Assembly: GCA_045614365.1 (NCBI GenBank)
Contig: JAZLCV010000102.1
Location: 1-43,964 of the forward strand
Direction: 5' to 3'
DNA from: Eubacteriales bacterium
Lineage (GTDB): Bacteria; Bacillota; Clostridia; Oscillospirales; JAAYXM01
Length of the DNA stretch: 43,964 nt
The notes beneath the pieces were generated by a model. The model worked only from the letters and a program-made list of their open reading frames with translations. It did no database searches and had not been told where the DNA came from. The position numbers and the translations under genes are program-made. Below are positions 20,993 to 43,964 of the stretch, in pieces. The number at the start of each line of letters is the position of its first letter. The first letter of the stretch is position 1.

Positions 20993-23900
20993 TTATGACT
21001 TGCCCGCTACATAATCCAATATACGCTTGAGCAGCACTGCAACCTCGGCTCGTGTCGTGTAATCAGTTGGAGCGATAAGTCCGGATTTGCCGTTGACGAT
21101 ACCCGAACCGACAAGCGCAGAAACTGCTTCCTTTGCGTAAGGTGCGATGGTAGCGAAGTCCTCATTCTGCGGTTCGTCATAAATGCCGAACCCTACATTT
21201 AGTATCTGCAGTGCACGGTAGACGATTACCATCATATCCTGACGAGTGATGGAGTTGCGTGGTGCAAACTTGTTATCACCAATGCCGCCGATTATGCCAT
21301 TGTTTCGTGCTATTGCAAGCTCGGATGCATAATAATCATTCACCATAACATCTGCGAAGTTTTCCGTATTATCTGAGCTTAGCTTGAATGCACGCACCAG
21401 AAGCAGTGCAAAATCTGCGCGGGTGATATTTGATTCCGGATTGAACGTACTTGCAGTCATGCCCTTTATTATTCCATCTGCCGCAAGCGCGTTTATCGCA
21501 TCTGCTGCCCATGCGTGATTACCCAAATCCGTGAATTTCGGTTCGTCGGAACCACTGAACCCTACGTTGGGTTGGGTTGCAGCATCTTCGTTGCCGTTTT
21601 CATCGGTATCCGTTGTGTCACCAGTTGTGTCATGCGGTTTGTCATCCGGTGCGGCACCGCCGCCACCGCCTCCTCCACCGCCAGCGGCAGGTGTATCGGT
21701 GTTTCCTGCCTCCGGTGTTTCGGTTGTATCAGTTTTATCCTGAGATGAGCCACCCGTTGTCGAACCGTAGACAGTGACAGTAAAATACAGCGTTGATGTT
21801 CTGCCAAGCGAGTCGGTCGCATCAATTGCGACAAGGCTCTCTCCCACCTGGCTGCCATCCGGCTTCCATGTAAAGGTTGCCGTCTCTGCACTAAAGCTTG
21901 CGCCTCGCGGAAGTGTGCGTGCAGAGTAAGTAACTATACCGTCTTCTACCTGACTTTCCGCTCTTACTGTAAGCTTCAAAGAGCTTCCGGCAGATGATGT
22001 AATATTTCCCGGCTCGTCAAACTCAGGAGCATTGTCTTCTTCATACGACATCGGAATTGCAAAACGCGTTCCCTCATTGATGATATAATTGTATGTATCA
22101 TCCTCATAGCTGTCATATGAATCGACAAATGTTACATTACCAAAGCTCAGAATTGCCGTTTTTCCATCCTCAGAAATCTCAGCATCCTCTATTATGAATG
22201 CCGCATTGCCCGGAGAGTCGGTCTCTCCGACGAAAATACGTCCGGACAGACTTGTTTTTTCATCATTCATCATTTTAAGCAGAGCTTTACTTATGGGCTC
22301 ATCAAACTCGACCTGCGCTTTATTTACAATAGAAAGCCCCTTTGTATGCCACGTTACCTTACCGGTAAGAGCATCGGTCTGCTCATTATCCTCGTTTCCG
22401 ATAAGCGTTCCGTCGTGGAGATAGCTGTAAATGTTTTCAAGCTTACCGTCAACCGACTTAACCGTCCAGACTCCCGCAAAGCCGCAGAACAGGAAGCTGT
22501 AGCCTTCGGTATCGGTTCCGACGGTTGTATCGGCTATAGTGTATGTAATGTCCTTTCTTGTTGCGTACATTACATAATCAACTCTTCCGTCAATAAGCTC
22601 CACTCTGACCGCTGCTGCCTTGTCAGCGCCGAGATTTTCGCCATTTACCGGCACCATCTCAATGCGGTCGATGTTCTTTATATACGGAGTTTTGTTATAC
22701 GGCTCGAAAACAGTTGTATAAAGCGTATCAAGCTTTTCATCTGCCTTTGCCTTGCGGCGCACAAGCAAATACTCAATTCTGTTTATCACCTTATCCCAAT
22801 CATCTTTACGCGTAGGAACACTCTGCGCAAGCGTTACCTCATCTGCCTTCCAGTCGTTTGCGGTTGTAACCTTCAGATGAATATCCATAAGACTGCTATT
22901 ATTGCGCGACAACTTTCTCATATCTGAAATCTTATAGTCAACAGAGAAATTCATATCAGGATCATTGTCCTTGCGGATTTTCTCAAGCCAAGTATAACCC
23001 GAAGGATATTTCAGCGGAACATACTGATTAGAAGTATTAGTCCACGGGTCGTTTCCGAAACGCGCATCAGTTCCTGCATAAGTACCGATGTAATTGCCGT
23101 TTTCATCAACCTGATGTTCAATGCTGTCAAGCCCCGTTGTCTCCGCCACGGTATTACTCGATGCATGGAAGGAATAAATATGATCTTCCCCGCCGAGCAC
23201 CTTGAAGAAGTCTACACCGTAAGATATTTCATCGTCGTAGTCTATCATCATTACTGTTCTGCGATAATCATCAGCCGTCTGATAGGTTGTGCTTCCGTCA
23301 ACATCCATAAGGCGGACTCTTGTATCCTTGTTGTCAAAGTGCAGTGGCTTTGCCGGATCTTCGGGTTTTACCGAACTTGTTTCGTTTATGACAACCGTGT
23401 TGTGCGAAAGCGTAACATTCGTCCACTGATGACGGCTTGGATATGCACCTGTTCTTTCCGGGTATCCGTTGTCCGACGACATTGAAATTCCATATGCATC
23501 AATACCTATATTCAGGAAATCTCGGTGCATGTGCGATGTTGCTCCGCCAAAGTACATCCAGAAATCGCGCGTGGTGTCTTTTATTGTACTCGTTCCCAAA
23601 ACGTTATTATACAGCGCACCGGCGCGAAGCGATGCAAAGCCGTAGCCCGTCATCATAGAGCTTCTGTCATAATTATATTCACCAAAAGCATCTATTTCCT
23701 TTTCGATATCACTATAAAGGCTGTCGGGATTTTTCGTGAAGATATCGTAATGCAGATCTTCGAGTGCAAAGTTCTTACCCTTTACGGCAATCTCATAAAG
23801 AAGCTGGGCAAGCTGCGTCTTTGTCTTTTGGTAACCGCTTATCTTTTCTTCAAGCTCTGCCCTAACAGCCTCATCAACTGTCTTAAGACTTTCTTCAAGC

Positions 23901-26900
23901 TCTGCTGTATATATTGCAAGCTGCTTATAGCTTTCGGCAATAATATTTGTATCCGATGGCATAACACGGTATGTTCCCATCATTCCCTGGTCGCCTATTG
24001 ACTGCGTTCCACGATGCAGATCAATCATATCGTTATAGCAGGTAAGCATCGTTATATATTTCGGATTTCTCCAGAGGTTTTCCTTTTCAGTCAGCTCGCC
24101 CTTGTACAAGCCGAGCGTCGTAGCCACAGCAACGGTATCCTCAATCCAGCCGTAGTTGTAGGATGATGAGGATTCTGTTCCCTGACCGTCACGCGAAACC
24201 TGATTTACAATCTTATAAAGAAGCTCGCCACCGGTGTTGAAGGTTTTGCCAGCCGTTGATGTGTTCTGCTTGCTTTCCACGAACAACCAGTCTATCATCT
24301 CACGCGAATACGGTTCTCGGTCATATACAACAGCAGCATTTGCCACTGCCGCCTGATGCATACCAAAGTTTCCGTTTACATCTCCCGCCATCGCCGCACT
24401 GTATATCTCATAGATGAGGTCACGCTCGATATTATCACGTATGTTCTTGTTGGAGTTTTTGGGAAGCCTTGCTTCTCCCGTTACCTGATGCACTGCTATT
24501 CCGTAATACTCCCGTTCTTTTTCGGCAAGAAAGCTTTGTACCTCGGGGTCATCATACATCGGCCAGAACGCATCATATGCCGTTGAGAAGCTTATAGCAA
24601 AGTTTGCATCCCAGATATCATTTGATATTTTGCCGGAATTGTGTGAGCTTGACGAGAATGCATAACGCAGCACATTCCAGTTTACGGTTTCGCCGTTGCT
24701 GTTTTTCCACTCGTTTGCGCTATATTCGGGATACAGGTCTGCAAGGCGGTCAATCAGGACCGCGCCGATCTTTCCATACTTTTCTTCACCTGTGTAGACA
24801 TACGCAAGCTTCAAAGAATCAATCGCTTCAATAATGGCGTTTGCTCCTGCATGCCAGAATCCGCAATGGTTGTAGTATGGTATAAAAGGCCACAAATCTG
24901 AAATTGCATCGCTTGTTTCCCATGCACAGCCCGGAGCATATCCCCAACCATCATCAACACACCAGAGCATACCGCTCTTGACCTCATCATATCCTCCGAC
25001 GAGATTGTATATCTTATGGTCTGCTTTTCCGTCGCTGTCGAGGTCTGCATTATAGCGAAACGGGTCTATGCCGTTAAACTCTTTTCCTTCAGTATACAGG
25101 TCGGTATACATATCATTTTTAAGATACCCTTGGCCGTAGCCGTAGTATTTATACCAGTTCGTAAGCTCGGTTCCATATTGATCGAAAAATGCGGTTGTAC
25201 CTGTCGGATCCACCATCTCCAGCTTTTCGCAATCACATTCAAAATCATGATTTTCCGCAAAGTCAGCCTTGTGGTAAATCATATTATGATGGCGCAAAAG
25301 CGCAAGAGCACGGTCAAACACGCCGTCGTTTCCGAGCCCCAGCTCATAGAACGAGCCGAAATCATTTGACGGGAAAAGGCGCTTGCATTCCGGGCACTGT
25401 ATTTTCCACGGACGTGTCAGCGGTGATGTGATCCACGGATACCCTGACTCTGCAACCTTGACTCCGCAATAACGGCAGACATATGTGGATATTTCATCAC
25501 CACGGCGGCTGAGCTGAATAGAACGCGGAATGCCCTCTCCCGCAAGCAGATTCCATATTCCTTCCATACCAAGGGCTACGTATTTATCTGCCTTTTCAAC
25601 CGCAGCATCCTTTTCGTTCTTTGCCCAGGTATATTTTTTGATGTTTTCTCGAGCAATCGCAATGCGTTCGTCCGTATAATACGTACGGCCTGCCTTACCG
25701 TGCGTGACGGTAATTGTCGCCGATGCTTCATACGGCACGTCGTCAAGCGTCGTAGTAACCGAAACTGTATAAACTCCTTCTTCTGCATCGGAGCCTATCT
25801 CTGCCGTGAACGTACCATTCTCGCCTTCCTCAAAGCTTACGTTAGTCTGCTCTGCGTCATAGTTCCACTCGATGCTGTCCCAAGATATATCGCCTGCGAA
25901 GTCATAACCACCAAGAGATACTGCTTTTATGCCAAGTATGATGCTCTCCCGCTCGCCGGGGCGCATAACAAAGCTGTCTCCGGTTATCTCAATGCCTGCA
26001 AGCTCTGAATAATCGCGCACATTAACCTCTACCGTCTCTGACCAGCTCTGTCCCTTGCTCTCGCCCGTGTTGTCCGTAAGCGTCATTTTAACGTGTGCCG
26101 TACCTAATTCTTTTGCCGTAACCGTGCCATCAGCTGCAAGGTCTATATATTCCCCGCCGTCTGAAAGTTCATATACGATCGCATAGTCCTGTCCTACGCC
26201 TGTAAGCGACGGCATAATCTCGTGAGAAACGCCGTTTTTAAACAGAATTGATGCCGAAAGAGCAACACTTTCGCCTTTGTTTATTTCATAGCTTTCCTTC
26301 ATCGGAGTGAGCGCCTTTATTTCAGGTATGCTCTCTGCCGCGAAAAATGCAATCGAGCCATAAGCCTGTCCGTAATATGTGTTGTTCACATACTCCATCT
26401 CACCCGTCACCGGATTGAAAACCTGCAAAGTACGAGTCTGGCAATCAAACGTCAGCGTGTGCGTTCCCTCTTCGATATAAAACGTACGGAAGGTTTCCGG
26501 CAGAATGTTATTGGATGTTCCTTTGTTGTAAAAGCAGAAATCTCCTGCATATACTCCATCAAGATAAATATCCACGTCCTCTGCCGCTTTTATTCCGTTT
26601 CCTTTTCCCGAAATGGAAATCGAGTAATATCCCGAGCGCGGAATTTTAACCTCAAGAACGCCCTTTCCTGTTCTTCGCGGAGTTACGGTAAGCCCGTTAA
26701 GATTAAGATTTATCGTCCCCTTGCTTGTGAGATCCCACGAAACAAATCTCCATCCGTGTTCTTCGAGCGTTGCGGCATATACATCCGTTATCGGCTGATT
26801 CATAAAATCAATGATAACGTGCTTGTCGTTATCGGTATTGACAATTTCTATATCAGTGCTGCCCGTTACTGTTTTTCCGTTATACGCTGCTTCGGCGCAG

Positions 26901-28093
26901 AGCTTTATGCCGTCAACACCCGCAGGTACCGTTATGTACCACTCGCTATTATCTTCTATTCCGTCAACGATGTCGTTTCCGCACTCAAACCATACGCGGA
27001 CAGAGGGTTGCGTCTCAAACTCCGTAATAACCGTTCCGTTTCTGTCCCTGAACGTGAGCTTCACACGCCGCGTTGCATATGCCGGAATTCTGTTGCCGCC
27101 GTCAAGAGAAACATCGACCGTGTGTATAGATTCGTCAATAACGGTTATTGTTGCAGAGCCGGTCAGCTCCACTCCTTCAACAACTGCCGTAGCAGTAATT
27201 GTTGCAGTTCCCTCGCCAATTCCCGTCACGGAATTTCCGTCAATTGAAATAATCCCGTTATCTTCTGTCGTATATGTAACCTCAGCATCAACAACCGTAC
27301 CACTTGCGTCTTTTACCACGCTGGAAAGCGTTGCCACCTCATTTTTCTTTATCTGCTCCTTTGAGGTTTTTACAAGCACGCGCGGGGTAAGCGTAAGCGA
27401 TGCTACCGACAGAGTTCTCGTTTGCCCTGCCTTTCCTTGATTAAAAACAAGAACATATTCCTTTTCCGCACTCAGCGTAACATCCTTTGCCGATTTAATT
27501 GTCATTGCTTTCGTTGCTGCGGTTGACTGTTTTATCATTGCCGTTCCGACAAGAGACTCGGACGAGATTCCAAGATCTCCGAACGCAAGTCCGCCTGTTC
27601 TTACAGACGAGCTAACCGTTCCATATGTATCACCACTTGCAAATGTCTCGGCAAGTTTTCCCTCAAGCGGGGCAATATACATCTCTAATGCTTCCGAGCC
27701 GTACTTCTGATGTGAGGCCGTACCCGATATGCTATAAGTGGCAGTTTTCGGAACTCTTATTTTAAAAGCAATCCAGTTATTTGCCGCCTGACGGCTTGTC
27801 TGCAAATACGCAAACGCCGCGACTACAGCAGTTGTTGAAGATGATGCAGCACCTGTAATATGAGAGCCGAGATATGCCCAGTTGCGGTCTGTTCCGTAGC
27901 TTGTAAAATACTTTTCACCGGATGCCGATTCCAGCGGGACCAATGCCGCTGTCGAAACAACATCATTATGTCCGTCTATATGAAAATTATAGTTTACGGC
28001 ATCTGTTTCCGTTGCTCCTGCAAACAGAACTGTTGTAGGCAACAATGATATCAGCATGCATATGCTTAAGATTAACGATAATGTTCTTTTCAT
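20993..28093 (-). CDS. SLH-anchored multimodular heparinase II/III-like polysaccharide lyase (~2366 aa)
   Basis: Signal peptide from ATG 28093 (AGGAG RBS); CBM-like and Ig-like modules; CRYCG..CPEC; HMHRD..DNGYP..SHNTVVINE resembling the heparinase II/III C-terminal domain; putative Ig (LPRGASF..TFTWKP); poly-Gly linker; three SLH repeats (ITRADF, ITRQDM, TTRAEV). Confidence 0.8.
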   Translation of the reverse strand: MKRTLSLILSICMLISLLPTTVLFAGATETDAVNYNFHIDGHNDVVSTAALVPLESASGEKYFTSYGTDRNWAYLGSHITGAASSSTTAVVAAFAYLQTSRQAANNWIAFKIRVPKTATYSISGTASHQKYGSEALEMYIAPLEGKLAETFASGDTYGTVSSSVRTGGLAFGDLGISSESLVGTAMIKQSTAATKAMTIKSAKDVTLSAEKEYVLVFNQGKAGQTRTLSVASLTLTPRVLVKTSKEQIKKNEVATLSSVVKDASGTVVDAEVTYTTEDNGIISIDGNSVTGIGEGTATITATAVVEGVELTGSATITVIDESIHTVDVSLDGGNRIPAYATRRVKLTFRDRNGTVITEFETQPSVRVWFECGNDIVDGIEDNSEWYITVPAGVDGIKLCAEAAYNGKTVTGSTDIEIVNTDNDKHVIIDFMNQPITDVYAATLEEHGWRFVSWDLTSKGTINLNLNGLTVTPRRTGKGVLEVKIPRSGYYSISISGKGNGIKAAEDVDIYLDGVYAGDFCFYNKGTSNNILPETFRTFYIEEGTHTLTFDCQTRTLQVFNPVTGEMEYVNNTYYGQAYGSIAFFAAESIPEIKALTPMKESYEINKGESVALSASILFKNGVSHEIMPSLTGVGQDYAIVYELSDGGEYIDLAADGTVTAKELGTAHVKMTLTDNTGESKGQSWSETVEVNVRDYSELAGIEITGDSFVMRPGERESIILGIKAVSLGGYDFAGDISWDSIEWNYDAEQTNVSFEEGENGTFTAEIGSDAEEGVYTVSVTTTLDDVPYEASATITVTHGKAGRTYYTDERIAIARENIKKYTWAKNEKDAAVEKADKYVALGMEGIWNLLAGEGIPRSIQLSRRGDEISTYVCRYCGVKVAESGYPWITSPLTRPWKIQCPECKRLFPSNDFGSFYELGLGNDGVFDRALALLRHHNMIYHKADFAENHDFECDCEKLEMVDPTGTTAFFDQYGTELTNWYKYYGYGQGYLKNDMYTDLYTEGKEFNGIDPFRYNADLDSDGKADHKIYNLVGGYDEVKSGMLWCVDDGWGYAPGCAWETSDAISDLWPFIPYYNHCGFWHAGANAIIEAIDSLKLAYVYTGEEKYGKIGAVLIDRLADLYPEYSANEWKNSNGETVNWNVLRYAFSSSSHNSGKISNDIWDANFAISFSTAYDAFWPMYDDPEVQSFLAEKEREYYGIAVHQVTGEARLPKNSNKNIRDNIERDLIYEIYSAAMAGDVNGNFGMHQAAVANAAVVYDREPYSREMIDWLFVESKQNTSTAGKTFNTGGELLYKIVNQVSRDGQGTESSSSYNYGWIEDTVAVATTLGLYKGELTEKENLWRNPKYITMLTCYNDMIDLHRGTQSIGDQGMMGTYRVMPSDTNIIAESYKQLAIYTAELEESLKTVDEAVRAELEEKISGYQKTKTQLAQLLYEIAVKGKNFALEDLHYDIFTKNPDSLYSDIEKEIDAFGEYNYDRSSMMTGYGFASLRAGALYNNVLGTSTIKDTTRDFWMYFGGATSHMHRDFLNIGIDAYGISMSSDNGYPERTGAYPSRHQWTNVTLSHNTVVINETSSVKPEDPAKPLHFDNKDTRVRLMDVDGSTTYQTADDYRRTVMMIDYDDEISYGVDFFKVLGGEDHIYSFHASSNTVAETTGLDSIEHQVDENGNYIGTYAGTDARFGNDPWTNTSNQYVPLKYPSGYTWLEKIRKDNDPDMNFSVDYKISDMRKLSRNNSSLMDIHLKVTTANDWKADEVTLAQSVPTRKDDWDKVINRIEYLLVRRKAKADEKLDTLYTTVFEPYNKTPYIKNIDRIEMVPVNGENLGADKAAAVRVELIDGRVDYVMYATRKDITYTIADTTVGTDTEGYSFLFCGFAGVWTVKSVDGKLENIYSYLHDGTLIGNEDNEQTDALTGKVTWHTKGLSIVNKAQVEFDEPISKALLKMMNDEKTSLSGRIFVGETDSPGNAAFIIEDAEISEDGKTAILSFGNVTFVDSYDSYEDDTYNYIINEGTRFAIPMSYEEDNAPEFDEPGNITSSAGSSLKLTVRAESQVEDGIVTYSARTLPRGASFSAETATFTWKPDGSQVGESLVAIDATDSLGRTSTLYFTVTVYGSTTGGSSQDKTDTTETPEAGNTDTPAAGGGGGGGGGAAPDDKPHDTTGDTTDTDENGNEDAATQPNVGFSGSDEPKFTDLGNHAWAADAINALAADGIIKGMTASTFNPESNITRADFALLLVRAFKLSSDNTENFADVMVNDYYASELAIARNNGIIGGIGDNKFAPRNSITRQDMMVIVYRALQILNVGFGIYDEPQNEDFATIAPYAKEAVSALVGSGIVNGKSGLIAPTDYTTRAEVAVLLKRILDYVAGKS
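21168..21196 (-). repeat. REP-like GTAG palindrome in-frame within SLH gene (encodes VGFGIYDEP)
   Basis: GTAG-GGTTCG-GCATTTATGA-CGAACC-GCA; lies between SLH2 and SLH3. Confidence 0.75.
21539..21565 (-). repeat. REP-like GTAG palindrome in-frame within SLH gene (encodes VGFSGSDEP)
   Basis: GTAG-GGTTC-AGTGGTTCCGAC-GAACC-G; 21/27 identical to 21170-21196; immediately before SLH1. Confidence 0.65.
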
Positions 28094-28144
28094 AAAATTT
28101 CTCCTTATAAACAGCGTTTGTGATCTTTCAGCGAACCTCAGGAT

Positions 28145-28185
28145 GAAATGTGGGAGAATGAACACCGTCCATCCTCCCCCATTCC
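28145..28185 (-). other. Intergenic RNA stem-loop between the two large surface-protein genes
   Basis: 18-bp stem with three G-U pairs that form only in the minus-strand transcript; no U tract. Confidence 0.65.
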
Positions 28186-32891: not shown

Positions 32892-32926
32892 TAAAATATC
32901 TTAAAACAAGGAAGAGGTGCGTGGCT

Positions 32927-36206: not shown

Positions 36207-37751
36207 TTATTTTACGCGATTGTATGCAGACTCGTATGCTGCAAGAACTTCTGCCACGTTCATTTCTTCAAGTTTTTTTACAAACGAATCAAAATCCGAA
36301 AGCGGTGCCTGACCAAGAATGAATTTGGTAAGCATTTCCTGAGTGTAGGTCTTAAGTCCTGTGTTGTATGTGTCAATGACCATCTGTTCATCATCGTTAA
36401 AGTCAAGCCACATTGTTACCGGATAATACGGGAGTGTATGCTCACGCAGCATTGCCTCAGACTCAAGTGTGGTTTCCGACTGTACTGCTTCTGCGGCAAG
36501 CGGGTCAAGACGCGTGAATGAGCCGTAGAGCTGGAAGCCGTAAAGAGTGTTCGGGCCTGAATTGTTTTCATCGGTTATAAACTTCTTTTTGCCATTTACA
36601 ACCTCATAGGTTTCTCCCTCTTTACCCCACGAAAGAAGCTCCATTCCTTCATCGGTATACATCCAGTCTATGAACTTTGCTGCATTTGCAATACCCTCAG
36701 CTTTTCCCGTGTCACAAACAGAAAGCCCCATAGTCTCAACATCACCTCGTTCTACCATAGCAACTCCCTTTTCGGAATTTGCAACAGGCGGAACAAATGC
36801 CTGAATTTTAAAACCGGGAATTTTGTCCTTTGCAAGGTTGTTGAAATGGTCGATACGAAGCTGTAAATGCGGCATAATAAACGTTCTGTTTGTAAGAACA
36901 AGCTCTTCAAACGCATTGTTGTTCATTGTAAGCATATCAGCAGGCGCAAGCTTTTCTTCAATCATCTTTTTGTAGAAGCTTACAACCTCGAGAGCAGTTT
37001 CTTCTGTTGCGCCCCAGCGCCACTCGTTATCGTCGTGATCGTAATACGCATCATACTCCCACCACTTGTCAAACGATGAACCGATTATGTCAAACACATA
37101 CGACATACTGCGCGTGCTATACGGATATGATTCCGGATACAGCTCTTTAAGTTTTTTGGACACCTCATAAATCTCATCAAAGGTTTCCGGTGCCTTCAGA
37201 TTGTGCTTTTTGAAAATATCCTCGCGGTAAAGCCATGCGCGCATGCGGGTTTTGCCTTCACGCCCCGTAGCCGGGGTGTAATAAATCTTGCCATCCTGTG
37301 TAACGCGGTTTTTTACGGCAACTGCATATTCATCTTCGGAAAGCGAGTTTTTCCATGCATTATATGCAGGCATATATGCTTCGAGGTCTTCAAGAGCGAT
37401 AAGCCCTTCTCCTGCATATTTCAGCGCATCACTGCCCATAGAAAATGCCATAATGTCCGGAAGCGTATCACGCCCCGCAAACATAAGTGACCATTTTGTA
37501 ACGGCATCTGTGGACGGAAGAGAATTTACCTGTAGCGTTGCGCCCGAACCTTCGGACATATACTCCCATAACTTCCAATCCTCACGATAGGGCCAGCTTG
37601 CATTGGACGGAACAAGCAGTGTTATAACATCGTCTTTTGTCAGCGGTTCTCCCGCTTCCACATCATCCAAAACTGCCCGATTTCCTCCGCAGGCAGAAAT
37701 CGCAAGCATCATGATGCATGCGAGAAGTAAAGCTGTAATTCTTTTAATCAT
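36207..37751 (-). CDS. Carbohydrate ABC transporter substrate-binding lipoprotein
   Basis: Lipobox ISAC; LPDIM, DGKIYYTP, YREDIFKK..PETFDE, WGKEGETYE, KFILGQAPLSDFD typical of clostridial sugar SBPs. Confidence 0.88.
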   Translation of the reverse strand: MIKRITALLLACIMMLAISACGGNRAVLDDVEAGEPLTKDDVITLLVPSNASWPYREDWKLWEYMSEGSGATLQVNSLPSTDAVTKWSLMFAGRDTLPDIMAFSMGSDALKYAGEGLIALEDLEAYMPAYNAWKNSLSEDEYAVAVKNRVTQDGKIYYTPATGREGKTRMRAWLYREDIFKKHNLKAPETFDEIYEVSKKLKELYPESYPYSTRSMSYVFDIIGSSFDKWWEYDAYYDHDDNEWRWGATEETALEVVSFYKKMIEEKLAPADMLTMNNNAFEELVLTNRTFIMPHLQLRIDHFNNLAKDKIPGFKIQAFVPPVANSEKGVAMVERGDVETMGLSVCDTGKAEGIANAAKFIDWMYTDEGMELLSWGKEGETYEVVNGKKKFITDENNSGPNTLYGFQLYGSFTRLDPLAAEAVQSETTLESEAMLREHTLPYYPVTMWLDFNDDEQMVIDTYNTGLKTYTQEMLTKFILGQAPLSDFDSFVKKLEEMNVAEVLAAYESAYNRVK

Positions 37752-37857: not shown

Positions 37858-39663
37858 TTATTCAAAATCAAACGATATTACAGGGATTTTTTTTCCTTCT
37901 CCCCATACATCAACCGGAACAAGAATGAGTTTATCAACAGCTTTATCCACATTAATGTGATATGCGCGTTTACGGTTTTTTTCAATCCTTAGCATCTCAA
38001 CGCGCACACCTTCCTTTTCGCCGTAAAGCACAAACTCCTTACACAGAGTTTTGGGCATATGCATCATCGGGCTGTCAAGGCGTGTGTTGGCGCGGGTTAT
38101 ATGCCGACTCTCAACAGGGTTCATTTGCAGAGTTTCACGATTCAAATCACTGTCAAACACAACATGCACAGCAGATACCTTAGTCTGCGGAAAAGCGTAT
38201 TCTATCTCTTGCCCTTTAGCTGCATAATAGCAAAACTCTTCTTCACCGTATATAGCATGGAATCTGTCTTTCCCGTTTCTCAGCACGTTTTCTCCGGCAC
38301 TGAGAGCTGCACCCGCGCAGATTTCAGATATACTTCTCACCTTTGACGGGAGGAAGCAGTCCTCATTAAGAAGCTTTTTCTGCAAAAGCTCAACATAATC
38401 CATATAAACGCCGTGAGGGGTTGCGTTTTTCAGCACAGCTATCGCCGCAGCTTTTCCGACCGCCTCTCCGAGAAGCGAACACGTTGCCATAACTCTGATA
38501 CTGCTCATCGCCATATGCGTCATACTTATATTGCGTCCTGCAAAAAACAGATTTTCCACATTCTTTGAGTATAGTGCGCGGTACGGAATGGAATACGGTG
38601 CAGGAGTCTGTATATCGGTATTAGGCACGCCTCTGTGATAAAAACCGCCGGGATAATGATCATCTATCGGCCAGCCGCCAAAAGCGATTTCATCTTCAAA
38701 CACGCGTCCGTCGGAGATATCACGTTGAGTTATCATATACTCTCCACACATCCTGCGCGATTCGCGCTTTCCCGGAAGGAAACCCAGAAAATCAAGTTCC
38801 CAGTTTTCGCTTTTAAAATTGCCTGAATTTTTTATATAGTTCCACGTTCCGGTTGCAAGAGCGAGAAGCTCGTCCCTTATTTCTTCCGTATCACCGATGG
38901 AATCACGGTCACCTCCAAGCTCAAGATACCAGAAATTCTCAGCCGGATCATAGATATCGGGTGCACTGTTCTCCCAAACCTTATCGGGAGCTCTGTTCTC
39001 AAAATCCTTTTCAGTAAGCTTTGCGCTCCACTCCGGTGCGGTGTATTTGACCGCTCTGCAGGTTTCCCGCCCTTGAAGCAGACATGACATTCCCATCGTC
39101 ATATTATCCGGCTCTATGAGCATGGTATCCTCTCCAAACTCCGACTTCGCTTCTCTTCCTATGCGGAACTCTGCACCTGTAAGCGGAGCAAGAATGCTAT
39201 CGCCGGAGCTATCGCAGAAGAAGCTTGCGCTAACCTCGATAAAACACTGGGTCGTCATCTGGTATCCCGTAACTGACTTAATTTTTACGCTTCTTCCATC
39301 CGCAAATGCTCCGGTTTCTGTTTTTGCATCAATACATGTGCAATTAAGTAAAAGTGTAATATTCTTTTCGCGACGTACAAAATCATATAAGATTGTATCC
39401 CACACAGCATAGCTTTTGGTAGGGTTGCGATACAGGCTTTCAAGATAAATTTCTTCTAAAATCCCTGTTTCGCGATTGTTCTCCCCCTTAGCGTGACTTA
39501 TCCACATACGGATTTCGGATGATGCATTTCCGCCAAGCACCGGACGTTCATGCATTAGAACAACCTTTACCCCCTCGCGAGCTGCAGAGATAGCAGCAGA
39601 CAATCCCGCCATACCTGCACCTACCACGCATAAGTCGCATTCTAATTTTTTCTTTTTAAGCAT
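37858..39663 (-). CDS. FAD-dependent oxidoreductase (FAD_oxidored type)
   Basis: VVGAGMAG Rossmann motif, LGGNASSEIR, DSSGD, GKRESRR, IPYRALYS, FAGRNIS.TH. Confidence 0.9.
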   Translation of the reverse strand: MLKKKKLECDLCVVGAGMAGLSAAISAAREGVKVVLMHERPVLGGNASSEIRMWISHAKGENNRETGILEEIYLESLYRNPTKSYAVWDTILYDFVRREKNITLLLNCTCIDAKTETGAFADGRSVKIKSVTGYQMTTQCFIEVSASFFCDSSGDSILAPLTGAEFRIGREAKSEFGEDTMLIEPDNMTMGMSCLLQGRETCRAVKYTAPEWSAKLTEKDFENRAPDKVWENSAPDIYDPAENFWYLELGGDRDSIGDTEEIRDELLALATGTWNYIKNSGNFKSENWELDFLGFLPGKRESRRMCGEYMITQRDISDGRVFEDEIAFGGWPIDDHYPGGFYHRGVPNTDIQTPAPYSIPYRALYSKNVENLFFAGRNISMTHMAMSSIRVMATCSLLGEAVGKAAAIAVLKNATPHGVYMDYVELLQKKLLNEDCFLPSKVRSISEICAGAALSAGENVLRNGKDRFHAIYGEEEFCYYAAKGQEIEYAFPQTKVSAVHVVFDSDLNRETLQMNPVESRHITRANTRLDSPMMHMPKTLCKEFVLYGEKEGVRVEMLRIEKNRKRAYHINVDKAVDKLILVPVDVWGEGKKIPVISFDFE

Positions 39664-39748: not shown

Positions 39749-39801
39749 AAAAAAGCACCGTCGCAAAGGTTAATTTTCACCCTTGCGACGGTGTTCTTTT
39801 T
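39749..39801 (-). terminator. Intrinsic terminator after ceramidase-like gene
   Basis: GCACCGTCGCAA..TTGCGACGGTGT stem flanked by A6 (U tract on minus) and T run. Confidence 0.8.
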
Positions 39802-39811: not shown

Positions 39812-41170
39812 TTACAGACCGGATTTCTCTAAAAGCTCAATTGTAGCGTTTACCATATCCGTACCGATTTTCGGTTCGGGAGTTGTCCCTCCGGTAATGG
39901 TCGGCTCATAGCCTCCCTGCTCAATTGCATCCTCCGTCGGAAGATAGCATCCAAAAGAGCCATTTGAAAGCTCACCGATAATGATGTTCTTATCTGCAAA
40001 CCTCTCACGGACAGCCTTACCGTATTCAACAAATACTTCTGCCGGCCACGTTACGATTGCGCTGTCTCCGAGCGTAAGCGTCATAACCTCTGCATCAATC
40101 ATCTTTATTGGATTGTTGAATGCATCAACGGTTGCAAGCGCAATATGACGGCGCTCCTTAAGTCCAAGATTTTCCATGCTGTATCCCTCAAAGCGAACAT
40201 CTTCGCCGTGAAGAAAGCGGTATGCAGTGTCAACATACTCTTTTGTAGGAACACGAAGACGACCCGAAATAAACTCGCGCGATACAACCGGAGAAACATC
40301 GCCCGAAAGCGGGATTTTCCCTTCAATTTCGCAAAGCGCGTCAAAAAGCGCGTGTGCTGTCTTCTTGTAGATATAAAGCTCCGGATTAGTCTCTTCAATT
40401 TTTGATTTTACCGGAATATGCAATGGATTTAAGTGATTTGTATTCCCGCACGGCCCCGTGAAGAACACACTTTCAACATCCTCACCGAACTTTTCCGCAA
40501 CAAGCGTTGCAAGATACCCCGGATAGTCTGCTGAAATATTTCCTTCGCCCATAGCTCCACCGAGCATATCAAGATGAACACCGTAGTTGGATAAGAAAGC
40601 GAGGATTTTTCCGTTTTCATCACATACCTTACCGACAACGAACGACTCATCCGGTGTTCCTACGGCCTCAACTATATCGGGGTTCATATTGCCCGGATTT
40701 GTTCTTACTCTTCCGTTTTTCATAAGATATCTGCGTATGAATGTATAGCCGGACACTTCTGTTTTTGCAAATCCGATTTTTGCATTTATGCGCTTTTCAT
40801 AAGCCTCGACAGCAGCATCAATCGCCGCAGATATAAGCTTGTTCATATAAATCGGGTCATGTTCTCCGGCTTCGTACCAATGCCATGACGGACCACCGGT
40901 ATGCGTATGCGAAGCAGATACAGAAATATTCTTTTCCGGAATCCCGCAGTTTTCATATATTCCGCGGCGGATGCGCAAGATGTCATCCCTTCGTAGATTT
41001 ATCGTGTCGCACACAACAGCAACCGCAAAGCTACCGTCATTTTCAAACACCATTGCCTTTGCATAAAGCGGGTCAAGAATTGTACTTGCAAATCTCTTTG
41101 AATAATATCCCGGAATAACCATACCGAGTTCAGGTGTGATATCTCTTTTTGCAACACCAAATTTCAACAT
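39812..41170 (-). CDS. Neutral/alkaline ceramidase-like amidohydrolase
   Basis: DITP..GY..DPLYAKA, ASHTHTGG, NYGVHLD, ISADYPG, GPCGN, GGYE. Confidence 0.8.
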   Translation of the reverse strand: MLKFGVAKRDITPELGMVIPGYYSKRFASTILDPLYAKAMVFENDGSFAVAVVCDTINLRRDDILRIRRGIYENCGIPEKNISVSASHTHTGGPSWHWYEAGEHDPIYMNKLISAAIDAAVEAYEKRINAKIGFAKTEVSGYTFIRRYLMKNGRVRTNPGNMNPDIVEAVGTPDESFVVGKVCDENGKILAFLSNYGVHLDMLGGAMGEGNISADYPGYLATLVAEKFGEDVESVFFTGPCGNTNHLNPLHIPVKSKIEETNPELYIYKKTAHALFDALCEIEGKIPLSGDVSPVVSREFISGRLRVPTKEYVDTAYRFLHGEDVRFEGYSMENLGLKERRHIALATVDAFNNPIKMIDAEVMTLTLGDSAIVTWPAEVFVEYGKAVRERFADKNIIIGELSNGSFGCYLPTEDAIEQGGYEPTITGGTTPEPKIGTDMVNATIELLEKSGL

Positions 41171-41232: not shown

Positions 41233-42273
41233 TTAAAGCTCTACAAACTTGCCTGTCTCAGAAGATTCATATGCAGCCTGAATTACGCGCTGAGCGCAAA
41301 TCGCATCTGCTGCCGGAACTTCAATCGGAGCACCGTCACGGTGAGAACGACCGAAGCTGTCAAGCTCTTTGGTGTACATATTGCCAAACTCAACCTTAAC
41401 ATCCAACTTCTTGACTTCATTTCTCGTCTGCTGTGCGTCATAGCCGAGAGAGCTGTCAGCAGCGATAACGTCAATCGTACCGCCCTCTTCCTGAGAAAGA
41501 GTGCCGTAAGCAACGATTGAACCTGCTGTACCGTAGATTTCGAGCTTACTCGGAACAGCATCCGGAATGTTGAAGTTAGACTCAACATATGCAACAGCGC
41601 CGTTTTCAAGCTCCATCATAAGAGAAGCCTGATCTTCAACCTCATAGGAGAAAGTGTTTGTCTTGCAGAAGGATGCAACTTTCTTTGCCTTTGATCCTGT
41701 AATATACTGGAGAAGGTCAATGCAGTGAACGCCCATATCCATAAGCGCACCGCCGCCGGAAAGCGCCTTTACCTGACGCCATGCGCCCGGAATTTCCGGA
41801 TACCAGCAAGAAAACTGTGCACGGCAGTTGATAATCTGACCAATCTGACCGGACTGAACAATCTCACGGATTTTTGCGTTGATTGCGTGGAAGCGCATAA
41901 GGAAGCCTGTTGCAATCTTTACGCCCTCTTCCTCACAAACGCGAAGAACTTCTTCACCGTCTGCAATATCAAGGCAAATCGGCTTTTCAAGAAGAATATC
42001 CTTCTTTGCGCGAGCAGCATCAATAGCCTGCTCCTTGTGGCAATTAACGGGAGATGCAATGTAAACAACATCAACCTCGGGGTCTGCAAGAAGTGCCTTG
42101 TGGTCAGTGTAAGCGCGCTTTGCGCCGTACTTTACGCGAAGCTTTTCTGCAAGCTCTTCGTTGATTTCCATAACGGCGATAAGCTCTGCCTCGTCGGAAA
42201 GCATCATACCCGGAAGAGTACGTCTGTCAGCAATACCGCCGGCGCCGATAACGCCCCATCTTACTTTTTTCAT
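41233..42273 (-). CDS. Gfo/Idh/MocA family NAD(P)-dependent oxidoreductase
   Basis: GVIGAGGIA, LLEKP, GGGALMDMGVHCID. Confidence 0.93.
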   Translation of the reverse strand: MKKVRWGVIGAGGIADRRTLPGMMLSDEAELIAVMEINEELAEKLRVKYGAKRAYTDHKALLADPEVDVVYIASPVNCHKEQAIDAARAKKDILLEKPICLDIADGEEVLRVCEEEGVKIATGFLMRFHAINAKIREIVQSGQIGQIINCRAQFSCWYPEIPGAWRQVKALSGGGALMDMGVHCIDLLQYITGSKAKKVASFCKTNTFSYEVEDQASLMMELENGAVAYVESNFNIPDAVPSKLEIYGTAGSIVAYGTLSQEEGGTIDVIAADSSLGYDAQQTRNEVKKLDVKVEFGNMYTKELDSFGRSHRDGAPIEVPAADAICAQRVIQAAYESSETGKFVEL

Positions 42274-42299: not shown

Positions 42300-43247
42300 T
42301 TAGTTGCACTCTGCAACAAGCGGACCTGCAAGTTCTTTAAGGAAGAAGAGCTTGCCTGCGAGAGTGGGCATATAGGAAGAAGTGATCCACGGAGTCGGTC
42401 CATAGCGGAGAGTCATCCACAGCGACATACCCTGCCACTGCATTCCGCGGGAAAGAGCGCCGTCACAGCCACCGATGATACGGTCAGACTGGAGGAAGAG
42501 GCCGGGGCCGATTGTGTTTGCACGGCACGGAACGAGTGTTGTGCGGCTCTTGAAGCTTGTGATAGCGTTCTGCTCGATTGTAAGCGGGTGAAGCTTTGCA
42601 CCGATGCGGTACATCTGGTTCTTCCACTCTTCTTCTGTTGCAAACTCAGCTGCAAACTGCGGCTCCCAGAAAGCGATATGGCACATACGTCCGATACCGA
42701 AGGTTGTGATAAGGCGTGCGCCCTCTGCCTTAAGCTTTGCAATCTTTTCCGGATATGTCGGGAGATTTTCCTTTGTTGCAAAGTTTCTCTGATTTTCCGG
42801 AACGGTCTTGTTAATTTTGCTGTAGAATGCATCACGCATTGCATATGTAAATGAACCGGGGTTTGACGGATCAAGTGTGTTGCCGTCTGCATCAGACCAC
42901 TCGTCCATATTAAAGCCGTAAACGTGAGAGCAATCAATATCCCACTCGTTGAGGAAGTATGCCGCCCAGCGATACATACCCATCGGACCTGCCGGAAGAA
43001 TCATTGCAAGCTTAATTCCTTCATCGCGTGCCATCTTGATCTGGTTTGCAATCTCGTGGCCCATCATCATATCAAACTCTGCAACGTTGTCGCACTGTAC
43101 CGGCTTAAAATCCGGGTTCCAGAAGCTCTGGCGCTCGAAAATCTCTTCAGGTGCATTGGAGCAGCACTTGTCAATCTTCTCAAAATCCCAGCCTTCCGGA
43201 TAGAATCCCTCTAAAAGGGAGCCTTTTACTGTACTAATGAAATCCAT
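42300..43247 (-). CDS. Divergent glucosamine-6-phosphate deaminase/isomerase (NagB-like)
   Basis: [33 protein letters not shown] correspond to NagB-fold motifs (FNMDEY, GIGxNGHIGFNEP). Confidence 0.75.
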
Positions 43248-43274
43248 AATTTTTATCCTCCTTTAAAATAAGCC

Positions 43275-43964
43275 TTACGGCAAATGTCTCATTGTTGTCT
43301 GGCGAAGGTGTGCCTTACAGGTTTTGAAGCCCTCGGCATACATAACTCCGCACTGAAGTCCGCGCGCACGGGTGCAGGAACGCACAAACTCGATAAAGTC
43401 AATTTTATCGTGCTCACGCATCCAGACTATCTGGCTTTCGTGGCATTCCACAGCAGAAAGCTTCTGATCGATATAGTCCGTAACGTCAACATACATTTCG
43501 GGGACAAAGTTTGTTCCGGCAAGATTATCCATATAGTAAATAGGAACAACACTGCCCATCGGTGCTCCGGTTTCAGGGAACATATGCCCAACGGTCGCGG
43601 TAAAGCTCGTTTCAAAAACAAGCTGGCTGACCTGAAGATGGTCGTTCATATAATCATCCGGTCCGTGTGTGATTATAAAATCAGGCTTTACCTCACGAAG
43701 AATTCTGACCATTTCGCGGCGGGCGTTTATATCGTCCGCATAAATCATACAATCTCCGACATTGACATTGTAAACTTTTTTCACACCGAGAACGGCGCCG
43801 GCATTTTCCGCTTCCTTTGTACGCATTGCATTAAGCTCTTCCGGCATAATGACAGCATGCCCCATATCACCGTTGCAGACATGGCAGGTATATACTTCAT
43901 ATCCTTCCTTTACCATACGCGCAAGGGTTCCGCCGCAGCTGAGCTCGAGGTCATCAGGATGACA
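43275..43964 (-). CDS. PIG-L/LmbE family N-acetylglucosaminyl deacetylase (5'-truncated)
   Basis: Frame stays open to the window end: CHPDDLELSCGGTLARMVKEG; R..EA, ITHGPDDYMNDH, CHESQ, AEGF. Confidence 0.9.
   Translation of the reverse strand, partial: CHPDDLELSCGGTLARMVKEGYEVYTCHVCNGDMGHAVIMPEELNAMRTKEAENAGAVLGVKKVYNVNVGDCMIYADDINARREMVRILREVKPDFIITHGPDDYMNDHLQVSQLVFETSFTATVGHMFPETGAPMGSVVPIYYMDNLAGTNFVPEMYVDVTDYIDQKLSAVECHESQIVWMREHDKIDFIEFVRSCTRARGLQCGVMYAEGFKTCKAHLRQTTMRHLP

What the first reader, a model, noticed from the sequence alone, without database searches (positions are those of the whole stretch)
20993..43964. Candidate undescribed pathway for degrading an amino-uronate (possibly di-N-acetylated) glycan
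Seen: a cell-surface lyase-like enzyme, a sugar SBP, several amide-cleaving enzymes (PIG-L, ceramidase-like, amidohydrolase), two different nitrogen-handling enzymes (NagB-like and DegT), two oxidoreductases and a TIM-barrel isomerase. All lie on the minus strand around one AraC gene; no glycosyltransferase or nucleotidyltransferase is present in the window. Known: heparinase II/III-fold lyases need a uronic acid; NagB acts at C2; DegT enzymes reversibly transaminate C3/C4 of sugars, usually in biosynthesis. Inference: a DegT enzyme run catabolically together with NagB-like and multiple deacylases fits a sugar with two N-acyl groups, such as the 2,3-diacetamido-hexuronic acids of microbial surface glycans. 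The cell may therefore scavenge other microbes' glycans. The substrate is a hypothesis only.
Basis: partly seen in the sequence, partly recalled or inferred. Interest (0 to 1): 0.8.

Follow-up and report, generated by a model that had tools for sequence, protein, structure and literature searches.

The report
Surface lyase module beside amino-sugar operon
This stretch joins a widely conserved amino-sugar breakdown operon to one of dozens of variable modules built around a giant cell-wall-anchored lyase-like enzyme, so it is an interesting uncharacterised sugar-scavenging locus but not one single dedicated pathway.

Summary
The "one pathway" reading does not hold.

**Two units.** The right end (39812-43964: ceramidase-like, Gfo/Idh/MocA, NagB-like, PIG-L) is a cytoplasmic amino-sugar operon. 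It is kept in 28 of 32 genomes of the family and in at least 66 of 398 other Clostridia sampled, mostly with no lyase beside it. The rest (20993-39663) is a variable AraC-linked module. One genome of the same genus lacks it at this site.

**The giant protein.** Its core folds like PL40/PL17 polysaccharide lyases. This genome holds 23 more full-length copies, and such ORFs make up about 11.6% of the assembly.

**What beyond the contig end shows.** In relatives, the next genes are a second DegT, a methyltransferase and RNase Y. There is no biosynthetic locus.

**DegT.** Catabolic use is supported by context only: AraC and Gfo neighbours, no glycosyltransferase.

**Substrate.** It remains unknown, and the amino-uronate proposal is untested. 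The "two N-acyl groups" idea fits the conserved operon better than the lyase module.

The parts
20993..28165 (-). Giant secreted protein. The ORF runs from a GTG; the likely start is the ATG at 28093, giving 2366 aa. Layout: signal peptide, about 800 aa unassigned, a PL-like core, He_PIG, and three SLH cell-wall anchor domains.
   Evidence: (P0001, 2366 aa).
22106..25678 (-). Conserved core (residues 830-2020): an alpha/alpha toroid followed by a beta-sandwich, the polysaccharide-lyase fold.
   Evidence: Alignment A2 of 21 paralogs. AlphaFold model with pLDDT 77 and pTM 0.81. Foldseek: PL40 9vtk at 1e-21 and PL17 4ok4 at 2e-20. Profile against PDB.
25385..25477 (-). CxxC...CxxC motif (residues 897-927), invariant in 21 of 21 paralogs. 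A zinc-ribbon-like insert is my reading.
   Evidence: Invariant columns C68, C71, C95 and C98 of A2.
23111..23545 (-). Hepar_II_III_C match. It contains the HGHxD, D(LGYP) and SHNT motifs.
   Evidence: Pfam, 28 bits. The motifs align with the GHGHFD, TDYG and AHNT stretches of PL17 Alg17c.
21029..21538 (-). Three S-layer homology domains (cell-wall anchor).
28195..31758 (-). Secreted 1187-aa protein with a weak Ig-like hit. Its N-terminal ~330 aa resemble the N-terminus of the giant protein (36% identity). Paralogs lie beside many giant-protein paralogs.
31780..32670 (-). PF04909 metal-dependent hydrolase or decarboxylase, with six paralogs at 59-78% identity in the genome. Cytoplasmic.
32870..33871 (+). 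AraC-family regulator, divergent from the 31780-32670 gene. The likely start is the ATG at 32927, downstream of a promoter-like site at 32863-32891.
33910..34806 (-). Xylose-isomerase-like TIM barrel (isomerase, epimerase or dehydratase type). It is 66% identical to the copy at 18724-19659.
34828..36180 (-). DegT-family PLP aminotransferase (450 aa), with the lysine motif present. Three paralogs at 66-77% identity in the genome, and orthologs at 53-61% in other Clostridia families.
36207..37751 (-). Lipoprotein solute-binding protein, one of about 25 paralogs. No permease gene lies in the locus.
37858..39663 (-). FAD-dependent oxidoreductase (PF12831), cytoplasmic. No characterised close relative.
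   Evidence: (adjacent to a DegT in L004).
39756..39793 (-). Terminator-like hairpin (15 pairs, 9 of them G-C, followed by a T run), just after the stop of the ceramidase-like gene. It marks the proposed boundary between the two units.
39812..41170 (-). Short ceramidase-like protein (N-terminal domain only), cytoplasmic. It lies beside Gfo in 5 of 16 family loci and in the operon of another family.
41233..42273 (-). Gfo/Idh/MocA NAD(P) oxidoreductase, a member of the conserved operon.
42300..43247 (-). NagB-like deaminase/isomerase (315 aa). It is 81-99% identical across the family and 66-80% identical across other Clostridia families.
43275..43964 (-). PIG-L family de-N-acetylase, with its 5' end cut by the contig end. 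The operon goes on in contig C158 with a second DegT.
17005..19659 (.). Outside the finding: two more PF04909 genes (17005-17796 and 17796-18545, minus strand) and a second TIM barrel (18724-19659, plus strand). This is a second indel relative to genome G018.

Best explanation
The region is a mosaic of two units that happen to lie side by side.

**Unit A (39812-43964, continuing on contig C158)** is a conserved cytoplasmic amino-sugar catabolic operon. Its order is DegT2, PIG-L de-N-acetylase, NagB-like deaminase/isomerase, Gfo/Idh/MocA oxidoreductase and a ceramidase-like protein. In relatives a PfkB kinase and a NagC-like ROK protein follow.

Inferred chemistry of unit A:
- An N-acyl amino sugar is deacylated.
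- A C2 amine is removed by aldose-ketose isomerisation, as in NagB or AgaI.
- Where DegT2 is present, a second amine is removed by transamination to a keto sugar, which Gfo then reduces.
- The product is phosphorylated and enters glycolysis.

**Unit B (20993-39663)** is one of two dozen or more paralogous, fast-changing modules. It holds an AraC regulator, a giant SLH-anchored enzyme with a PL40/PL17-like lyase core, a secreted Ig-like partner, an orphan lipoprotein SBP and four cytoplasmic enzymes (FAD oxidoreductase, DegT, TIM barrel, PF04909).

Inferred working of unit B:
- The surface enzyme cuts an acidic polysaccharide by beta-elimination.
- The SBP hands oligosaccharides to ABC permeases encoded elsewhere.
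- The cytoplasmic set converts an unusual amino or keto sugar into ordinary intermediates.

**Shown here:** gene content, folds, conservation, copy number and the presence/absence pattern. **Inferred:** every enzymatic step and the substrate.
For: **Separate units**
- NagB-like is found in 28 of 32 family genomes at 81-100% identity.
- NagB-like and Gfo are adjacent in 15 of 16 fetched family loci. The giant protein is absent from their neighbourhood in most of these loci.
- In G018, Gfo is followed directly by HAD, ArsC and pyruvate kinase, the genes that lie at 15394-20897 in the window.
- In G019 the core genes are 97-99% identical to the window, but AraC is 71% and the Ig-like protein 62% identical, and the TIM and PF04909 genes are missing.
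- A terminator-like hairpin lies at 39793-39756.

**Unit A is catabolic**
- Its neighbours are PfkB and a NagC-like ROK protein.
- In other Clostridia families its neighbours are a class II bisphosphate aldolase, PfkB and a NagA-like Amidohydro_1.
- The NagB fold is confirmed, and the FNMDEW and HIAFWEP motifs are kept.
- Two metatranscriptome runs of one study hold near-identical contigs over 39822-43808. This is a weak hint only.

**Unit B**
- The lyase fold and a metal-site motif are present.
- The genome holds 23 further full-length copies and 12 partial ones.
- Within the genus there are 0-2 matches in 1.2-1.6 Mb genomes, but 24 or more (the scoring cap) in eight genomes of 1.5-3.2 Mb.
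- Paralogous loci carry varied glycosidases and esterases plus recurring DegT, PF04909, TIM and Gfo genes.
- The signal peptides fit the proposed locations.

**DegT**
- Orthologs at 53-61% identity occur in 21 of 398 other Clostridia genomes.
- Gfo is adjacent in 11 of 26 of their loci.
- AraC-DegT-Gfo units carry no glycosyltransferase.
Against: - No activity has been measured for any protein.
- The toroid catalytic residues of PL17 could not be aligned, and the PL17 Tyr450 falls in an insert.
- This genome has only two weak GH88 hits, one KduI and no KDPG aldolase above cut-off. That is few for a cell with more than 20 uronate lyases. The assembly is 82% complete.
- No permease lies in the locus, and only 7 permease matches were found in the genome.
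- The direction of the DegT reaction is unknown.
- Two DegT ortholog loci lie near a GT4 or a UDP-glucose dehydrogenase gene.
- Units A and B are adjacent in three genomes of the genus (G000, G019, G011). This could reflect a functional link.
- Whether G018 lost the module or the others gained it is not resolved.
Confidence: 0.6

Rival explanations
1. One reading: all 12 genes form one dedicated pathway for a glycan made of amino-uronic acids, possibly 2,3-diacetamido-hexuronates. The lyase releases the sugar. PIG-L and the ceramidase-like and 'amidohydrolase' proteins remove acyl groups. DegT and NagB-like remove the two amines.
For: - The genes are contiguous, and 11 of 12 share a strand.
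- A similar adjacency of the module with the core occurs in G019 and G011.
- The giant protein has a lyase fold.
- No biosynthetic genes lie nearby.
Against: - The core exists without the lyase in most genomes.
- G018 lacks the module at this site.
- A terminator-like site lies between the two parts.
- DegT450-type genes at 65-95% identity sit beside lyase paralogs that are only about 40% identical to this one. This DegT is therefore not tied to this particular lyase.
- The PF04909 protein is not a clear amidase.
Confidence: 0.1
2. The giant SLH proteins are not lyases. They would be adhesins or other cell-surface proteins with a lyase-like binding or epimerase/hydrolase domain. The neighbouring cytoplasmic enzymes would then be unrelated sugar-metabolism genes.
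For: - Identity to solved lyases is only 13-15%.
- The fold is shared with dermatan sulfate epimerase 6hzn.
- Canonical enzymes for unsaturated uronates are scarce in the genome.
- About 800 N-terminal residues are unassigned.
Against: - 21 of 21 paralogs, at 35-39% pairwise identity to the window's copy, keep the His/Asp/His motif and many toroid residues invariant. That argues for a conserved active site.
- SBP, AraC, glycosidases and esterases recur beside the paralogs.
Confidence: 0.12
3. The DegT, Gfo, PIG-L and related enzymes build or remodel the cell's own envelope glycan, for example the wall polymer that holds SLH proteins. They would not break down imported sugars.
For: - The best NCBIfam hits of both DegTs are the biosynthetic PseC and LegC families. 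The scores are 204 and 173 bits for DegT450 and 236 and 210 bits for DegT2, all below the cut-offs.
- The cell makes very many SLH proteins.
Against: - No glycosyltransferase, nucleotidyltransferase or acetyltransferase lies in the window or in the core operon of relatives.
- Deacetylases, a kinase, a NagC-like ROK protein, AraC regulators and aldolases are the neighbours.
Confidence: 0.08
4. Unit A degrades an aminocyclitol or an inositol-linked amino sugar rather than a hexosamine. This would be inosamine-type chemistry, or turnover of GlcN-inositol- or GlcN-malate-type thiols.
For: - Gfo346 scores best against IolG, at 158 bits.
- PfkB scores best against IolC, at 150 bits.
- The TIM barrels hit IolE weakly, at 34 bits.
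- PIG-L scores best against BshB1, at 132-142 bits.
- Solved relatives of the DegT include scyllo-inosose aminotransferases.
Against: - All these scores lie far below the family cut-offs.
- NagB-like keeps the motifs of an aldose-ketose deaminase.
- In other families the neighbours are a class II aldolase and a NagA-like enzyme.
Confidence: 0.05

Closest known systems
PL17 alginate lyases (Alg17c, 4ojz/4ok4) and the PL40 ulvan lyase Uly1040 (9vtk), within the heparinase II/III-fold superfamily
   Same: - Alpha/alpha toroid plus beta-sandwich fold (Foldseek E 1e-21 to 2e-20).
- Hepar_II_III_C signature.
- His/Asp/His motif aligned.
   Different: - Only 13-15% identity.
- The core is embedded in a 2366-aa SLH-anchored protein with about 800 unassigned N-terminal residues.
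- It carries an invariant CxxC...CxxC insert.
- The catalytic Tyr/His of the toroid were not verified.
- The family has at least 1014 representative clusters at E <= 1e-30, all without a functional name in what I saw.
- It is likely a family of its own.
GlcNAc/GalNAc catabolism (NagA-NagB; the Aga pathway with AgaA, AgaI/AgaS, tagatose-6-P kinase and KbaY aldolase). For the E. coli aga genes I saw only the start of the abstract of PMC3668189, in the listing.
   Same: Unit A and its relatives combine a deacetylase, a NagB/AgaI-like deaminase, a PfkB kinase, a class II aldolase and a ROK protein.
   Different: - The deacetylase is PIG-L type, not NagA type.
- NagB-like is far below the nagB cut-off (45 against 236.9 bits). 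It lacks the Asp two residues before the catalytic His, and it has an extra 50-aa N-terminus.
- Canonical NagA occurs alongside it in this genome (3 matches over the cut-off). Canonical NagB reaches its cut-off in 24 of 32 family genomes but not in this one.
- Gfo, DegT2 and ceramidase-like genes are extra.
Dehydrogenase plus DegT aminotransferase pairs of amino-sugar biosynthesis: NtdC/NtdA (kanosamine, on glucose-6-phosphate) and WbpB/WbpE (UDP-2,3-diacetamido sugars). The roles are recalled; NtdA and WbpE are among the PDB hits.
   Same: A Gfo/Idh/MocA enzyme next to a DegT enzyme is the recurring pair here too. The chemistry alcohol <-> ketone <-> amine is reversible.
   Different: - The context here is catabolic: AraC, ROK, a kinase, deacetylases, and no transferases.
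- Direction and regiochemistry are unknown.
- No equivalog cut-off is met.
Gram-positive polysaccharide utilisation loci and SLH-anchored CAZymes (for example Monoglobus pectinilyticus; recalled, not read here)
   Same: A regulator, an SBP, secreted wall-anchored enzymes and cytoplasmic finishing enzymes.
   Different: - No ABC permease genes lie in the locus or in the 135 flank ORFs of 20 paralogous stretches.
- The catalytic family is uncharacterised and expanded to about 11.6% of the assembly.

Membership tests
Heparinase II/III-fold polysaccharide lyases (PL17/PL40-like) | Alpha/alpha toroid followed by an antiparallel beta-sandwich | tested here: met
   Model with pLDDT 77 and pTM 0.81. 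The top 50 Foldseek hits are lyases of this fold, plus one epimerase of the same fold.
Heparinase II/III-fold polysaccharide lyases (PL17/PL40-like) | Hepar_II_III_C sequence signature with the His/Asp/His metal site (residue roles recalled from PL17) | tested here: met
   PF07940 at 28.0 bits against a cut-off of 24. HGHxD, D and SHNT align with GHGHFD, TDYG and AHNT of Alg17c. H716, H718 and H759 are invariant in 21 of 21 paralogs, and D736 is nearly invariant.
Heparinase II/III-fold polysaccharide lyases (PL17/PL40-like) | Catalytic Tyr and the His/Asn neutraliser in the toroid | tested here: inconclusive
   The profile alignment does not reach the toroid reliably, and Alg17c Tyr450 lies in an insert. 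Invariant Tyr, Asn and Asp residues exist in the toroid, but their equivalence is not shown.
Heparinase II/III-fold polysaccharide lyases (PL17/PL40-like) | Beta-elimination on a uronate-containing glycan | not testable with these tools
   Needs an enzyme assay. Enzymes for unsaturated uronates are scarce in the genome: two weak GH88 hits, one KduI, and no Eda above cut-off.
NagB/AgaI glucosamine-6-phosphate deaminase family | NagB fold | tested here: met
   Model with pLDDT 82. NagB structures at E 7e-15, 20-21% identity and TM about 0.7; 6-phosphogluconolactonases rank lower.
NagB/AgaI glucosamine-6-phosphate deaminase family | Curated family score (TIGR00502) | tested here: not met
   45.4 bits against a cut-off of 236.9. 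It is a distinct paralog beside canonical NagA in this genome and beside canonical NagB in 24 of 32 family genomes, but not in this one.
NagB/AgaI glucosamine-6-phosphate deaminase family | Catalytic Asp (FNxDEY) and the His/Glu of GxGxDGHIAFNEP (roles recalled) | tested here: inconclusive
   FNMDEW and HIAFWEP are invariant in 24 of 24 orthologs. The Asp two residues before the His is replaced (GIGRMCH), and the phosphate loop differs (LPVGPMG).
DegT/DnrJ/EryC1/StrS aminotransferases | PF01041 domain and a PLP-binding lysine | tested here: met
   276 bits. The motifs SLMSGK in DegT450 and SFCQSK in DegT2 were found by pattern; the motif itself is recalled.
DegT/DnrJ/EryC1/StrS aminotransferases | Nucleotide-sugar biosynthetic context (glycosyltransferase or nucleotidyltransferase nearby) | tested here: not met
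   None in the window, beyond its end in relatives, or in the AraC-DegT-Gfo units. Two of the eight ortholog contexts fetched (seven of them scanned with Pfam) have a GT4 or a UDP-glucose dehydrogenase some genes away.
PIG-L/LmbE de-N-acetylases (BshB1 equivalog) | PF02585 domain; BshB1 cut-off | tested here: inconclusive
   PF02585 at 95 bits is met. BshB1 at 132 bits against a cut-off of 182.5 is not met. The gene is cut at the contig end.
Gram-positive polysaccharide utilisation locus | Regulator, SBP, ABC permeases and CAZymes in one locus | tested here: not met
   Regulator, SBP and a secreted enzyme are present. No permease lies in the window. The genome has 7 PF00528 matches on 5 contigs.

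The most novel reading that the evidence does not exclude
Two linked claims.

(1) The conserved operon is an undescribed catabolic route for di-N-acylated diamino sugars of other microbes' surface glycans.
- The operon consists of DegT2, PIG-L, NagB-like and Gfo, with a ceramidase-like or NagA-like deacylase and ROK/PfkB.
- In one Clostridia family it is fused to a NanA-like lyase, an aldo-keto reductase and an SDR.
- Candidate substrates are the 2,4-diacetamido-trideoxyhexoses that an aldolase would release from pseudaminic or legionaminic acids, or 2,3-diacetamido sugars.
- In this route a DegT enzyme would run in the deaminating direction on a sugar that is not nucleotide-linked.

(2) The giant SLH-anchored proteins are a new polysaccharide-lyase family. 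It would have diversified into dozens of copies per genome to depolymerise the varied acidic capsules and exopolysaccharides of neighbouring gut bacteria.
Probability: 0.15. Interest if true: 0.85.

Novelty: new variant of a known kind. Interest (0 to 1): 0.6.

Why it matters
- **A large uncharacterised enzyme family.** If the core domain is a lyase, this is a large family of surface depolymerases. The profile search found at least 1014 representative clusters at E <= 1e-30, and none that I saw carries a functional name. The family would then account for most of the genome-size difference within a genus of uncultured gut Clostridia (1.2-1.6 Mb against up to 3.2 Mb).
- **A possible catabolic DegT.** The conserved PIG-L/NagB-like/Gfo(/DegT2) operon occurs in roughly one in six of the Clostridia genomes sampled, and I found no described function for it. 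Showing that a DegT aminotransferase works catabolically on free or phosphorylated amino sugars would add a new step to amino-sugar metabolism. It would also make the recycling of bacterial surface sugars in the gut testable.
- **An annotation warning.** A contiguous, same-strand gene run need not be one pathway.

Tried and rejected
- **Literature.**
  - Searches for the PDB codes of the best DegT hits showed only that 8GYJ is Fic25. I read one passage of PMC11726168.
  - Searches on SLH, heparinase and Oscillospiraceae gave no description of this locus or operon.
  - Searches on catabolic sugar aminotransferases and on DegT with polysaccharide utilisation gave none either.
  - Searches on LmbE, NagB, tagatose and GalNAc and on pseudaminic acid catabolism or pseudaminidase also gave none.
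  - I read listings only, and supplements were not seen.
- **Solved structures by sequence.** The ceramidase-like protein has no hit. The FAD enzyme matches only at its dinucleotide-binding motif. The PF04909 protein has only weak LigW hits.
- **Unassigned parts.** Atlas and relaxed Pfam searches gave nothing usable for the 1187-aa protein or for the N-terminal 800 aa of the giant protein.
- **NagB replacement rejected.** I tested whether NagB-like simply replaces a missing NagA/NagB. It does not: canonical NagA occurs alongside it in this genome, and canonical NagB occurs alongside it in 24 of 32 family genomes, though not above cut-off in this one.
- **Reads.**
  - RNA and DNA contigs of four public runs were laid on 24000-43964.
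  - The module (24000-39300) had almost no cover in the two RNA runs, apart from a conserved DegT spot with loose ends. This shows nothing about its expression.
  - Low shares of words in the other runs are not evidence of habitat.
- **Locus L043.** It could not be read by my crude gene caller and was left out of the locus counts.

Full report
**1. Observation.**
The window is a whole 43,964-base contig (C102) of a 2.11-Mb assembly in 212 contigs, 82% complete. The closest named records are gut MAGs labelled Oscillospiraceae or Eubacteriales.

- The 'amidohydrolase' is PF04909. As I recall, that family is known mainly for lactonases and decarboxylases.
- The ceramidase-like hit is below Pfam's cut-off (28.3 against 32.1 bits), although the Atlas feature search agrees with it (0.96).

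Only three products carry signal peptides: the giant protein, the 1187-aa protein and the lipoprotein SBP. The other products look cytoplasmic. The left half of the window is housekeeping. The exception is 17005-19659, which holds two more PF04909 genes and a second TIM barrel.

**2. The region is a mosaic.**
The NagB-like gene is present in 28 of 32 genomes of the family at 81-100% identity.

I fetched 16 family loci and could read 15 of them.
- NagB-like and Gfo are adjacent in all 15.
- PIG-L is adjacent in 11. In the other 4 my crude gene caller picked the antisense ORF that overlaps the PIG-L position. It did the same in the window itself.
- A second DegT (DegT2, 422 aa, 33-38% identical to the window's DegT) precedes PIG-L in 7 loci.
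- A ceramidase-like gene follows Gfo in 5 loci.
- A PfkB kinase and a NagC-like ROK protein follow in 4 loci.
- The outer flanks are RNase Y, YmdB, a methyltransferase, Pth and Mfd.

In G018, a genome of the same genus, Gfo is followed directly by the HAD, ArsC and pyruvate kinase genes. In the window those genes lie at 15394-20897. So 20993-41170 and 17005-19659 are indels between the two genomes. The direction of the change is not resolved.

In G019 the core genes are 97-99% identical to the window. AraC is only 71% and the Ig-like protein 62% identical, and the TIM and PF04909 genes are absent.

A strong terminator-like hairpin lies just after the ceramidase-like stop codon, at 39793-39756.

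In this genome the operon continues on contig C158 with DegT2, the methyltransferase, RNase Y and YmdB. PfkB and ROK lie on contig C188.

**3. The conserved operon outside the family.**
In a sample of 399 scored Clostridia genomes, 81 have a match to NagB-like. There are 67 full-length places in 66 other genomes at 66-80% identity.

Within 1.5 kb of the gene, in 29 loci of other families:
- PIG-L occurs in 20.
- A Gfo346-like gene occurs in 11.
- DegT2 occurs in 7.
- PfkB occurs in 5.

Further neighbours are a class II bisphosphate aldolase (L080, L085), a NagA-like Amidohydro_1 (L061, L064) and DUF4432 (L070).

In one family, four loci share this order: ROK, ceramidase-like, two small ORFs, DegT2, PIG-L, NagB-like, Amidohydro_1, Gfo. 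In the one locus scanned in full (L164), a DHDPS/NanA-like lyase, an aldo-keto reductase and an SDR follow.

This genome holds those extra genes on contig C49. There they lie beside YhcH, a BNR protein, an SBP and a giant-protein paralog, and the two small ORFs are fused into one. Another family has only PIG-L, NagB-like and Gfo.

NagB-like has the NagB fold. It keeps the FNMDEW and HIAFWEP motifs but lacks one Asp of the canonical triad. Canonical NagA is present in this genome as well (3 matches over the cut-off). Canonical NagB reaches its cut-off in 24 of 32 family genomes, but not in this assembly. NagB-like is therefore a distinct enzyme.

Two metatranscriptome runs of one study hold near-identical contigs over 39822-43808. 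For example, 2 of 502, 3 of 516 and 0 of 201 letters differ. This is only a weak hint of expression.

**4. The giant protein.**
Residues 830-2030 recur in the genome: 23 further full-length copies and 12 partial ones. ORFs over 700 aa whose best hit is this protein add up to 245 kb, or 11.6% of the assembly.

An alignment of 21 paralogs, at 35-39% identity to the window's copy, keeps several features invariant: a CxxC...CxxC motif, the HGHxD and SHNTV motifs, and many toroid residues.

The model (pLDDT 77, pTM 0.81) matches the PL40 ulvan lyase 9vtk at 1e-21 and PL17 alginate lyases at about 2e-20. Heparinases, PL15, PL33 and one epimerase of the same fold follow, at 13-15% identity for the best. 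A profile alignment puts the three motifs on the GHGHFD, TDYG and AHNT stretches of Alg17c. It does not settle the catalytic Tyr/His.

Homologs are giant proteins of uncultured Oscillospiraceae, with no functional name in the listings. The profile finds 1014 representative clusters at E <= 1e-30.

Copy number varies within the genus. There are 0-2 matches in genomes of 1.2-1.6 Mb. Eight genomes of 1.5-3.2 Mb have 24 or more matches, which is the scoring cap, with 25-79 first-look candidates.

**5. The paralogous modules.**
I scanned 135 flank ORFs from 20 stretches.
- Varied enzymes: GH20, GH29, GH30, GH39, GH43, GH78, CE4, CE15, GDSL esterases, a BNR protein, a DHDPS lyase, GlcNAc 2-epimerase, YhcH, M20 and M55 peptidases, and creatininase.
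- Recurring enzymes: DegT, PF04909, TIM barrels, Gfo and AraC.
- Missing: no ABC permease and no GH88.

The genome has about 25 SBP paralogs but only 7 permease matches. It has two weak GH88 hits, one KduI and no KDPG aldolase above cut-off.

**6. The DegT of the window.**
- It keeps the lysine motif.
- Its best solved relative is Fic25 (8gyh/8gyj). KdnA and the 2-deoxy-scyllo-inosose aminotransferases follow. As I recall, these enzymes do not use nucleotide sugars.
- Paralogs at 65-95% identity lie beside giant-protein paralogs that are only about 40% identical to this one. Some relatives carry three tandem copies.
- Orthologs at 53-61% identity occur in 21 of 398 other Clostridia genomes sampled. 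Gfo is adjacent in 11 of 26 of their loci.
- Their contexts include AraC-DegT-Gfo, and AraC followed by two PF04909 genes, an M55 peptidase, DegT and Gfo.

This supports a redox-transamination pair under catabolic-type control. It does not show the direction of the reaction.

**7. Verdict.**
The best reading is two units:
- a conserved amino-sugar operon, related in logic to the Nag and Aga pathways but with PIG-L, Gfo and DegT components of unknown role;
- next to it, one copy of a greatly expanded, variable module built around a new lyase-like surface enzyme.

The substrate is unknown. The idea of a sugar with two N-acyl groups remains open, and it fits the conserved operon rather than the lyase.

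Noticed in passing
window 17005-19659: Two more PF04909 genes and a second TIM barrel (66% identical to the one at 33910-34806) lie between pyruvate kinase and ArsC. Genome G018 lacks them at this site. Pairs of a DegT gene and a PF04909 gene recur on contigs C18, C144 and C203, and on C148 a DegT gene lies beside two PF04909 genes.
   Followed up: partly
G000 genome-wide (contigs C141, C151, C152, C170, C184 for the permeases): There are about 25 paralogs of the 514-aa lipoprotein SBP but only 7 ABC permease (PF00528) matches on 5 contigs, and none beside the SBPs examined. The SBPs may share a few permeases, or they may act as surface glycan binders.
   Followed up: partly
Family genomes G000-G031: Within one genus, genome size tracks the copy number of the giant protein. 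Genomes of 1.2-1.6 Mb have 0-2 matches. Eight genomes of 1.5-3.2 Mb have 24 or more matches (the cap), with 25-79 first-look candidates.
   Followed up: partly
L164 (G072:C2:554001-574000); G000 contig C49:766-5846: In another Clostridia family the DegT2/PIG-L/NagB-like/Gfo operon runs on into a NanA-like DHDPS lyase, an aldo-keto reductase and an SDR. This genome keeps those genes on C49, beside YhcH, a BNR protein and a giant-protein paralog. Its 326-aa ORF matches both small ORFs of the other family.
   Followed up: partly
window 25385-25477: A CxxC...CxxC motif inside the lyase-like core is invariant in 21 of 21 paralogs. It was not among the stretches that aligned with PL17 or PL40 structures.
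   Followed up: no
window 27140-28093 and 30778-31758: The N-terminal ~330 residues of the giant protein and of the 1187-aa protein are 36% identical. Neither region matches any known family.
   Followed up: partly
window 43284-43964 (+): A 227-aa ORF on the plus strand lies antisense to the PIG-L gene. A longest-ORF gene caller picks it instead of PIG-L, here and in relatives (252-265 aa). It is most likely a shadow ORF.
   Followed up: partly
L007, L008, L009 (relatives' contigs): Three tandem copies of the DegT450-type gene (65-69% identical to the window's). In L008 they lie next to an AraC gene and a giant-protein paralog.
   Followed up: no
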